Shown one piece after another: positions 43,511 through 44,078 of a stretch of 64,000 nt of DNA. The translations under genes were made by a program, and so were the position numbers. The notes below the pieces were generated by a model, which was not told where the DNA came from, ran no database searches, and saw only the letters and a list, made by a program, of their open reading frames with translations. The DNA comes from Octopus vulgaris. Its lineage: Eukaryota. Numbering within the stretch: the first letter of the stretch is position 1; each line of letters begins with the position of its first letter. Location of the stretch: assembly GCA_951406725.2 (NCBI GenBank), contig OX597822.1:10168001-10232000 (forward strand). Reading direction: 5' to 3'.

Positions 43511-44078
43511 ATTAATTGTTATCGCCATATTAATATGGCAGTCTTATAGATATAAGACTAAAAGCTGTCGCTGATTAGCTCCATGAGGCCATCACCTTAA
43601 GATAGCTATATGACACACAAACTGTGTCCATTATAACCTTCGAACAAGGGAGGTCAGCCGCTTCACACTGCCGTAATCTCTTTTAGAGAGACTTAGTAAT
43701 TTTAATATTTCTATTATTGAAAACAAGTGGATGTATTCCACCGAAACTAGGTAAATAGAACCTTCGAACAGAGACGATCAGTGGCGACTCCTGCTGGGTC
43801 GACTACGCTACATTGACAAAGGGCAAATACCCTGAAACGCGTCTGTAGCTGTCTGACTAGCAGTGTGAAGCGGCTGACCTCCCTTGTTCGAAGGTTATAA
43901 TGGACACAGTTTGTGTGTCAAATAGCTATCTTAAGGCGATGGCCTCATGGAGCTAATCAGCGACAGCTTTTAGTCTTATATCTATAAGACTGCCATATTA
44001 ATATGGCGATAACAATTAATTTCCAGTAACGCTGCCGTAATCTCTTTTAGAGAGACTTAGTAATTTTAATATTTTTAT
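43511..44078 (+). mobile_element. Retrozyme-like/PLE pseudo-LTR element: inverted 161-bp segment plus 364-bp unit with partial tandem repeat
   Basis: 43511-43671 is the reverse complement of 43860-44020; 43-bp direct repeat at 43668 and 44032; HHR inside. Confidence 0.8.
43807..43849 (+). ncRNA. Minimal type I HHR with U3-A8 core
   Basis: gctaca TTGACAA aggg caaata ccct GAAA cgcg TC tgtagc. Confidence 0.75.

What the first reader, a model, noticed from the sequence alone, without database searches (positions are those of the whole stretch)
43511..44078. Best retrozyme candidate: 364-bp hairpin-rich unit with U3-A8 HHR, terminal redundancy and 5' inversion, in a SINE's (TA)n
Seen: 43-bp direct repeat 364 bp apart; HHR at 43807-43849 with perfect stems; a second degenerate HHR-like fold at 43709-43760 (ttctatt/aatagaa, TTGAAAA, gtgga/tccac, GAAA ctagg TA); many mini-hairpins (agtcttatatctataagact, gccatattaatatggc, tctcttttagaga); no ORF. 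Inferred: a slightly-longer-than-unit copy, as expected from reverse transcription of a circular or tandem ~364-nt RNA.
Basis: partly seen in the sequence, partly recalled or inferred. Interest (0 to 1): 0.75.

Follow-up and report, generated by a model that had tools for sequence, protein, structure and literature searches.

The report
Hammerhead retrozyme carried by Penelope elements
This is one young copy of a 364-base, protein-free repeat found at thousands of places in this animal genome; it carries a conserved hammerhead (predicted self-cutting) RNA motif and is likely pasted into TA repeats by a borrowed Penelope-type enzyme, possibly from an RNA circle, which makes it a new member of a known class.

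Summary
In detail: 43-bp exact repeat at 364 bp, U3-A8 type I hammerhead (43807-43849), 162-bp inverted arm, hairpins, no ORF, inside a SINE's (TA)n. The hammerhead shows three compensatory changes between subfamilies. The second 'hammerhead' is not supported. The family has over 2,100 segments in at least five subfamilies. Its copies are not circularly permuted: 286 of 337 arms end at one of two fixed 3' sites 60 nt apart, 5' ends vary, and 77 of 78 scorable mirror-image insertions use one site on each arm. That is Penelope-like element (PLE) anatomy, and intact RT/GIY-YIG PLEs in this genome show it too. The 'terminal redundancy' is only where this arm's 5' end fell. Arms run through the cleavage site (207 of 286) and reach 5.5 near-identical units, so the template is a circle or an uncut multimer; a circle is likely but unshown. 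No homologous autonomous partner was found, and no RNA test was possible. This copy has one hammerhead and cannot make a circle alone. Verdict: new member of animal non-LTR retrozymes. The scan noted this or sister families before on other DNA of this genome.

The parts
43398..43480 (+). left half of the host SINE
   Evidence: 83-87% matches to four other window copies; halves contiguous at window 40351-40760 and, on the minus strand, 8601-8980
43481..43509 (.). (TA)n target, left part
   Evidence: sequence; 262 of 285 family 3' ends are followed by (TA)n/(TAA)n within 24 nt
43510..43671 (-). inverted 5'-truncated arm, u196-357, ending at the short 3' site E1
   Evidence: E1 (u345-360) ends 132 of 337 arms
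43668..43671 (.). 4-nt microhomology (7 nt with one mismatch) joining the two arms head to head
   Evidence: 51 of 77 E1+E2 junctions overlap by 1-7 nt
43668..44081 (+). sense arm, 1.14 units, ending at the long 3' site E2 (u53)
   Evidence: E2 (u48-56) ends 154 of 337 arms
43668..43710 (+). first copy of the exact 43-bp repeat (second copy 44032-44074)
   Evidence: 1 of 52 columns with a minor allele over 8%, against 3-11 of 26 elsewhere; function inferred
43760..43896 (+). long imperfect stem that extends hammerhead helix I
   Evidence: fold; compensatory pairs 129-197 and 138-188 among five subfamily consensuses, with several other pairs broken
43778..43788 (+). site (u114) where a second retroelement inserts in sister subfamilies; empty in this copy
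   Evidence: 13 of 14 pattern matches share one element's 3' end at this base, control 0
43807..43849 (+). type I hammerhead, U3-A8 core, palindromic helix III; predicted cut 43843/43844, predicted to need a dimer
   Evidence: two copies cofold as a double hammerhead, -28.5 against 2 x -11.7 kcal/mol
43972..44007 (+). two adjacent hairpins just upstream of E1
44022..44081 (+). 60-nt 'tail' between E1 and E2, present on one arm only
   Evidence: same arrangement in PMC8557442 Fig. 2 legend
44082..44166 (.). (TA)n target, right part
44167..44475 (+). (TG)n and right half of the host SINE

Best explanation
This is one insertion of a non-coding, hammerhead-bearing repeat family with two fixed 3' ends, likely mobilised in trans by the RT/GIY-YIG protein of a Penelope-like element and likely copied from a ~362-nt RNA circle. 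Shown: family size, subfamilies, fixed ends E1/E2, variable 5' ends, (TA)n targets, one E1 plus one E2 in mirror-image insertions, selection on the hammerhead fold. Inferred steps: (1) a locus with two or more hammerheads in tandem is transcribed; (2) two ribozymes pair through the palindromic helix III, cut at u179/180, and the monomer is ligated to a circle; (3) the PLE protein binds the conserved u27-78 block, nicks both strands of a (TA)n tract and primes cDNA inside the RNA, at E2 on one strand and E1 on the other; (4) both cDNAs stop at variable lengths and join head to head by 1-7-nt microhomology. The window copy is such a product and, with a single hammerhead, is probably a dead end. 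Odds: PLE-mobilised retrozyme 0.85; circular template given that, about 0.6-0.7.
For: Copy counts: 95 exact core hits for this subfamily, 587 and 945 for sister cores, 2,108 for an 18-mer at E1; reversed controls 0 in all four. Best 40 copies 97-100% identical. 286 of 337 arms in 209 loci end at E1 or E2; 77 of 78 fully scorable inverted pairs are E1+E2 (P about 1e-22 if independent). Hammerhead covariation: helix I 146-182 A-U 128 / G-C 76 / G-U 8; helix II 156-169 A-U 186 / G-C 19 / G-U 12; palindrome GC 139 / AT 89; U3-A8 in 221 of 225. No stop at the cleavage site overall: 6 observed, 6.4 expected; 207 of 286 arms cross it. 18 sampled loci hold two or more tandem hammerheads; L260 holds 5.5 units 0-4 differences apart, nearest other locus 12. 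Private alleles shared within one locus: 4 between tandem units, 10 between arms. Intact 781-aa RT+GIY-YIG ORFs end the same way: two sites about 40 nt apart in (TA)n, and L127 and L138 each show one of each on opposite strands. Literature: tail at one end, inversions and microsatellite bias (PMC8557442; PMC3846280); two internal RT start sites and extension of both strands (PMC11167929); mussel 350-390-nt circles (PMC7229834).
Against: No cleavage, circle or transcript is shown. No DNA homology was found between the unit and any PLE examined, so the carrier is not identified. In the tail-selected sample 4 arms stop at the cleavage site against 1.5 expected (P 0.06), so some cut linear RNA may serve as template. 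Private alleles were mostly unshared (63 tandem, 116 arms), and the shared ones could come from gene conversion. L260 units alternate a 1-nt deletion near u3, which a single monomer circle does not explain. In vitro the Anolis PLE used uncut RNA and ribozyme mutants did not affect insertion; 8 of 9 Xenopus dimers did not cleave. 29 of 107 inverted pairs had an unscorable end.
Confidence: 0.65

Rival explanations
1. Same PLE carrier, but the template is an uncut linear multimer from a few tandem master loci (or monomers joined by template jumps); the hammerhead only trims the RNA or is kept for folding.
For: Fixed ends and pairing are explained equally well. Tandem loci exist. The Anolis PLE inserts uncut RNA and no reads ended at its cleavage site. 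A few unit-to-unit differences recur in one direction (for example u297 T to C in 5 loci against 1 reverse), though mostly at CpG.
Against: Arm lengths fall off smoothly past one and two units with no cap. No 5' pile-up at the candidate start u114 (3 observed, 4.9 expected). The hammerhead core and the dimer palindrome are kept by compensatory change in subfamilies 23-57 columns apart. Only 2 tandem pairs among the 95 exact hits of this subfamily.
Confidence: 0.25
2. The unit is the pseudo-LTR of an autonomous PLE not yet found, and these are its 5'-truncated copies.
For: The anatomy is that of PLE pLTRs; 24 of 57 Xenopus retrozyme families match known elements, 21 of 22 of them PLEs. My searches scored only the best 40 of about 3,000 candidates.
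Against: Arms longer than one unit continue into the same unit, not into an ORF (104 of 286). tblastn of two PLE proteins on 140 family loci found only separate neighbours. 113 free 5' flanks share no extension specific to the family.
Confidence: 0.07
3. A DNA-level repeat (fold-back/MITE-like element or minisatellite spread by recombination), with the hammerhead a passenger.
For: The window copy looks like a 162-bp terminal inverted repeat; unequal crossing-over could make arrays such as L260.
Against: Inverted arms have different lengths in every copy and unequal outer ends; many loci have a single arm (97 of 209); 5' truncation with fixed 3' ends is a retrotransposition mark; the hammerhead covaries.
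Confidence: 0.03

Closest known systems
Animal non-LTR retrozymes (Cervera and de la Pena 2020, PMC7229834: passages and section 14 read; Li, Clavereau and Pollet 2026, bioRxiv 10.64898/2026.07.22.740005: parts 1-3 of 5 read)
   Same: 150-450-bp non-coding unit, type I hammerhead, GC under 50% (41%), thousands of copies, dimers to multimers, highly self-paired RNA, PLEs in the same genome; mussel units are 350-390 bp.
   Different: U3-A8 core; mostly dispersed, truncated, two-armed insertions; two fixed 3' ends; no TSD visible in (TA)n; cleavage and circles untested; no homologous PLE found. Searches for octopus + hammerhead ribozyme, retrozyme + cephalopod and Penelope + octopus + non-autonomous listed no paper whose title or abstract start describes such a family; most listed papers were not opened and supplements were not seen.
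EN+ Penelope-like elements: pLTR, tail and inverted copy (PMC8557442 passages; PMC3846280 passages); PAc of Anolis (PMC11167929, parts 1-2 of 4 read)
   Same: Partial tandems, head-to-head inverted 5'-truncated arm, tail on one end only, microsatellite targets, microhomology junctions, two 3' ends matching two internal RT start sites.
   Different: No ORF; tail is 60 nt rather than 30-40; PAc showed no difference in start site between strands, whereas here the two arms almost always use different sites.
U3-A8 hammerheads of Schistosoma Cercyon PLEs (PMC4209133, parts 1-2 of 4 read)
   Same: Same core covariation; palindromic helix III; predicted dimer.
   Different: Canonical helix sizes here (I 6 bp, II 4 bp, no bulge before helix II) rather than the minimal form with long helix II.
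Non-autonomous Chlamys elements such as MRC1 (PMC8557442, passage)
   Same: Non-coding PLE dependants that form pLTRs and head-to-tail copies.
   Different: Those resemble their autonomous partner at the 3' end and most Chlamys lack canonical hammerheads.

Membership tests
Non-LTR retrozyme | Type I hammerhead in a 150-450-bp non-coding unit | tested here: met
Non-LTR retrozyme | Tandem copies with two or more hammerheads | tested here: met
   Met by the family (18 sampled loci, 5 of 53 in the tail-selected sample); this copy has one
Non-LTR retrozyme | No LTR, PBS or PPT; GC below 50%; highly self-paired | tested here: met
   GC 0.41; circular folds z -6.0 to -9.0 for five subfamilies; no fixed terminal repeat. 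PBS and PPT were not searched for separately.
Non-LTR retrozyme | Self-cleavage of the RNA | not testable with these tools
   Fold and covariation only
Non-LTR retrozyme | Accumulates as unit-length circular RNA | not testable with these tools
   No raw RNA reads were listed
PLE-mobilised element | Fixed 3' ends with optional tail, 5' truncation, partial tandems, inverted 5' copy | tested here: met
PLE-mobilised element | Microsatellite target | tested here: met
   262 of 285 ends
PLE-mobilised element | Active RT+GIY-YIG elements in the genome | tested here: met
   781-aa and about 1,100-aa open frames; activity inferred from intactness
PLE-mobilised element | Sequence homology to the pLTR of an autonomous partner | tested here: inconclusive
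   None among the GIY-YIG loci L031-L060, L121-L140 and L291-L330; other PLE clades not sampled
Autonomous PLE | RT-GIY-YIG ORF between pLTRs | tested here: not met
Second hammerhead (43709-43760) | Conserved core and helix II next to GAAA | tested here: not met
snRNA-type transcription unit | PSE-like motif 57-61 nt before the start | tested here: inconclusive
   A look-alike at u59 lies 55 nt before u114, but 63% of 500 shuffles score as well with a U1/U2 matrix

The most novel reading that the evidence does not exclude
A dimeric PLE enzyme copies one small RNA circle onto both cut strands of a TA tract at once, each subunit locked to a different start site (E1 or E2), which would explain in one mechanism the PLE 'tail on one end only', the head-to-head inversions and the more-than-unit tandems. 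The circle comes from an internal snRNA-type promoter whose start (u114) is in turn parasitised by a site-specific retroelement. The family is then a 364-nt minimal substrate for the unsolved PLE life cycle.
Probability: 0.3. Interest if true: 0.72.

Novelty: new member of a known kind. Interest (0 to 1): 0.4.

Why it matters
Retrozymes are known, and their dependence on PLEs is proposed from co-occurrence and homology, not from insertion anatomy. Here thousands of short copies give counts that long PLEs rarely allow: two start sites, a 77-of-78 rule pairing them across the two arms, and no stop at the ribozyme site. This makes two open questions testable with a 364-nt RNA: whether PLE enzymes use circles, and why the tail sits on one end. 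The finding itself is one ordinary copy, and the scan has reported this or sister families many times.

Tried and rejected
RNA evidence: no RNA holder listed on record; 20 of 24 runs held part of the stretch, all as assembled contigs, RNA status guessed. Four guessed-RNA runs laid on a tandem copy had family contigs, some at depth over 1,000, mostly of sister subfamilies; contigs show no ends, strand or circles, and the most covered subfamily is also the most numerous in the genome, so this is no evidence either way. An RNA-versus-DNA depth comparison was not obtained, which leaves expression open. Rfam: nothing. Partner search: GIY-YIG family search and a second PLE family gave no homology; L049/L121 and L097 hold a PLE beside a family copy only because both use the same (TA)n. 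AT-rich likeness of the 3' ends to PLE ends (TATTAT, TATTAAT) was judged too weak to name a carrier. Second hammerhead rejected. PSE matrix not significant. Twin priming with the E2 arm stopping at E1 was considered: 15 of 77 E2 arms and 7 of 77 E1 arms stop in u345-25, arm lengths are uncorrelated (rho -0.14, P 0.23); stops cluster at hairpin edges (windows chosen after seeing the data). Fixed terminal redundancy rejected.

Full report
Setting. The window lies in a 2.8-Gb animal assembly with about 30 large contigs. It is octopus-like by my recall of the SINE and by earlier scan notes; no call names it. u1-364 denotes window 43665-44028.

What is at the site. Inside the internal (TA)n of a host SINE lie two arms joined head to head: a minus-strand arm 43510-43671 (u196-357) and a plus-strand arm 43668-44081 (u4-364, then u1-53). 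The hammerhead at 43807-43849 has canonical helix sizes, a U3-A8 core and a palindromic helix III; two copies cofold as a double hammerhead. It sits at the tip of a long stem, and the unit folds far better than shuffles (z -6.66). There is no ORF and no Rfam hit.

The family. A DNA search gave 2,995 candidates, the best 40 at 97-100% identity. Exact patterns gave 95, 587, 945 and 2,108 matches with reversed controls of 0. I mapped loci from six samples: 30 best hits, 60 further exact-core hits of the 95, 30 best hits of a sister subfamily plus L121, 20 hand-picked, a set picked by the E1 18-mer on contig C1, and 17 of 30 loci of the largest subfamily. Fourteen overlapping loci were skipped and six suspected duplicates; later calls dropped one or two more. 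The samples are not random. Five subfamilies differ at 23-57 of 364 columns, with copies 2.5-4.1% from their own consensus; the window copy differs from its consensus at 4 positions.

The ribozyme is under selection. Across 209 segments U3-A8 is almost fixed (221 of 225 scored pairs), and three positions change in compensated fashion: helix I 146-182, helix II 156-169, and the palindrome CGCG to CATG. These are a few events inherited by many copies, not hundreds. U3-A8 is already described in Schistosoma PLEs (PMC4209133). The second fold is not conserved as a ribozyme, although the sequence under it, u27-78, is the most conserved block of the unit.

Ends. Of 337 arms in 209 loci, 132 end at E1 (u345-360), 154 at E2 (u48-56) and 51 elsewhere; 262 of 285 scored ends run into (TA)n or (TAA)n. 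5' ends are spread over the unit. Of 107 head-to-head pairs, 77 are E1+E2, 1 is E1+E1, none is E2+E2 and 29 have an unscorable end. Junctions overlap by 1-7 nt in 51 of 77. This is the PLE pattern: partial tandems, inverted 5' copy, tail at one end, microsatellite bias (PMC8557442; PMC3846280), with the two ends matching two internal RT start sites in PAc (PMC11167929).

Template. A self-cleaved linear monomer would cap arms at 177 nt (E1) or 238 nt (E2). Instead 207 of 286 cross the site and 5 stop within 8 nt of it; stops there are 6 against 6.4 expected overall, but 4 against 1.5 (P 0.06) in the tail-selected sample. 104 of 286 arms exceed one unit and 11 exceed two. L260 holds 5.5 units 0-4 differences apart, 12 from the nearest other locus. 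A few private alleles are shared within loci (4 tandem, 10 between arms) against 63 and 116 unshared. All this fits a circle or an uncut multimer. I favour the circle because lengths show no cap, long arrays are rare in this subfamily (2 tandem pairs among 95 hits), and the dimer-type ribozyme is conserved; circles are shown for mussel retrozymes of this size (PMC7229834) and were proposed for PLEs. It remains inference.

Carrier. The genome has several RT+GIY-YIG families, one with intact 781-aa frames and a cysteine linker of the Neptune/Nematis kind (label from the motif; no tree built), another with frames near 1,100 aa. The 781-aa family has a U3-A8 hammerhead-like motif near its 3' end and two ends about 40 nt apart in (TA)n; L127 and L138 show one of each on opposite strands. 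None shares DNA homology with the unit, and no family copy was found joined to an ORF. The carrier class is likely; the carrier is not identified.

A second parasite. L171 carries two tandem copies of an element of about 1.8 kb with a CCHC-type ORF fragment inserted at u114 with a short target duplication. A junction pattern found 14 matches, control 0; 13 share this element's 3' end at u114, 8 followed by a long stretch of the unit and 5 by only the first 14-18 bases; one is an inversion artefact. All are in sister subfamilies. Earlier scan notes read such sites as snRNA-type transcription starts. My own test did not show that: the PSE look-alike at u59 is not significant.

Verdict. New member of animal non-LTR retrozymes with PLE insertion anatomy; this copy is a likely dead-end product. 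Papers seen: PMC11167929 parts 1-2 of 4; PMC4209133 parts 1-2 of 4; bioRxiv 10.64898/2026.07.22.740005 parts 1-3 of 5; PMC7229834 passages and section 14; PMC8557442 and PMC3846280 passages. Supplements were not seen and might list cephalopod families. Interest 0.4.

Noticed in passing
L171; L371-L384 (unit position u114 = window 43778): An element of about 1.8 kb with a CCHC-type ORF fragment and an AATAAA 3' end inserts at one base of sister subfamilies, often as tandem copies; 13 junctions at about 10 places.
   Followed up: partly
L356 and L363, just upstream of U2 snRNA +1: The 3' end of a LINE-like element (long RT-side frame, AATAAA, A-rich end) abuts U2 +1 in place of the promoter, in two loci on different contigs.
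   Followed up: no
L122-L131, L136-L138: Young PLE family with intact 781-aa RT+GIY-YIG frame, a long upstream frame, U3-A8 hammerhead-like motif and two 3' ends.
   Followed up: partly
L321-L330: Very abundant PLE family (10,228 candidates) with frames near 1,100 aa and a hammerhead-like motif with an unusual UUGAAGA (U3-G8) core in both terminal repeats.
   Followed up: partly
L132, L134, L034 3' UTR: A third PLE family with a hammerhead-like motif, core CUGAAGA in L034 and CCGAAGA in L132/L134, palindrome AGUACU.
   Followed up: no
L260:2753-4752: 5.5-unit array of near-identical units in which a 1-nt deletion near u3 alternates (units 1 and 3); could be a dimer template or assembly error.
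   Followed up: partly
L331-L370 upstream flanks: U1 and U2 genes share ATCAGT 57-61 nt upstream of +1 in 38 of 40 loci (one as ATTAGT): the likely PSE core of this genome.
   Followed up: partly
L097:3113-3180: A copy that switches strand inside the long stem (u205 to u154), a fold-back during copying.
   Followed up: no
window 43210-43314 and 46695-46799: A 105-bp repeat (92% identical) left of the host SINE, unrelated to the unit.
   Followed up: no
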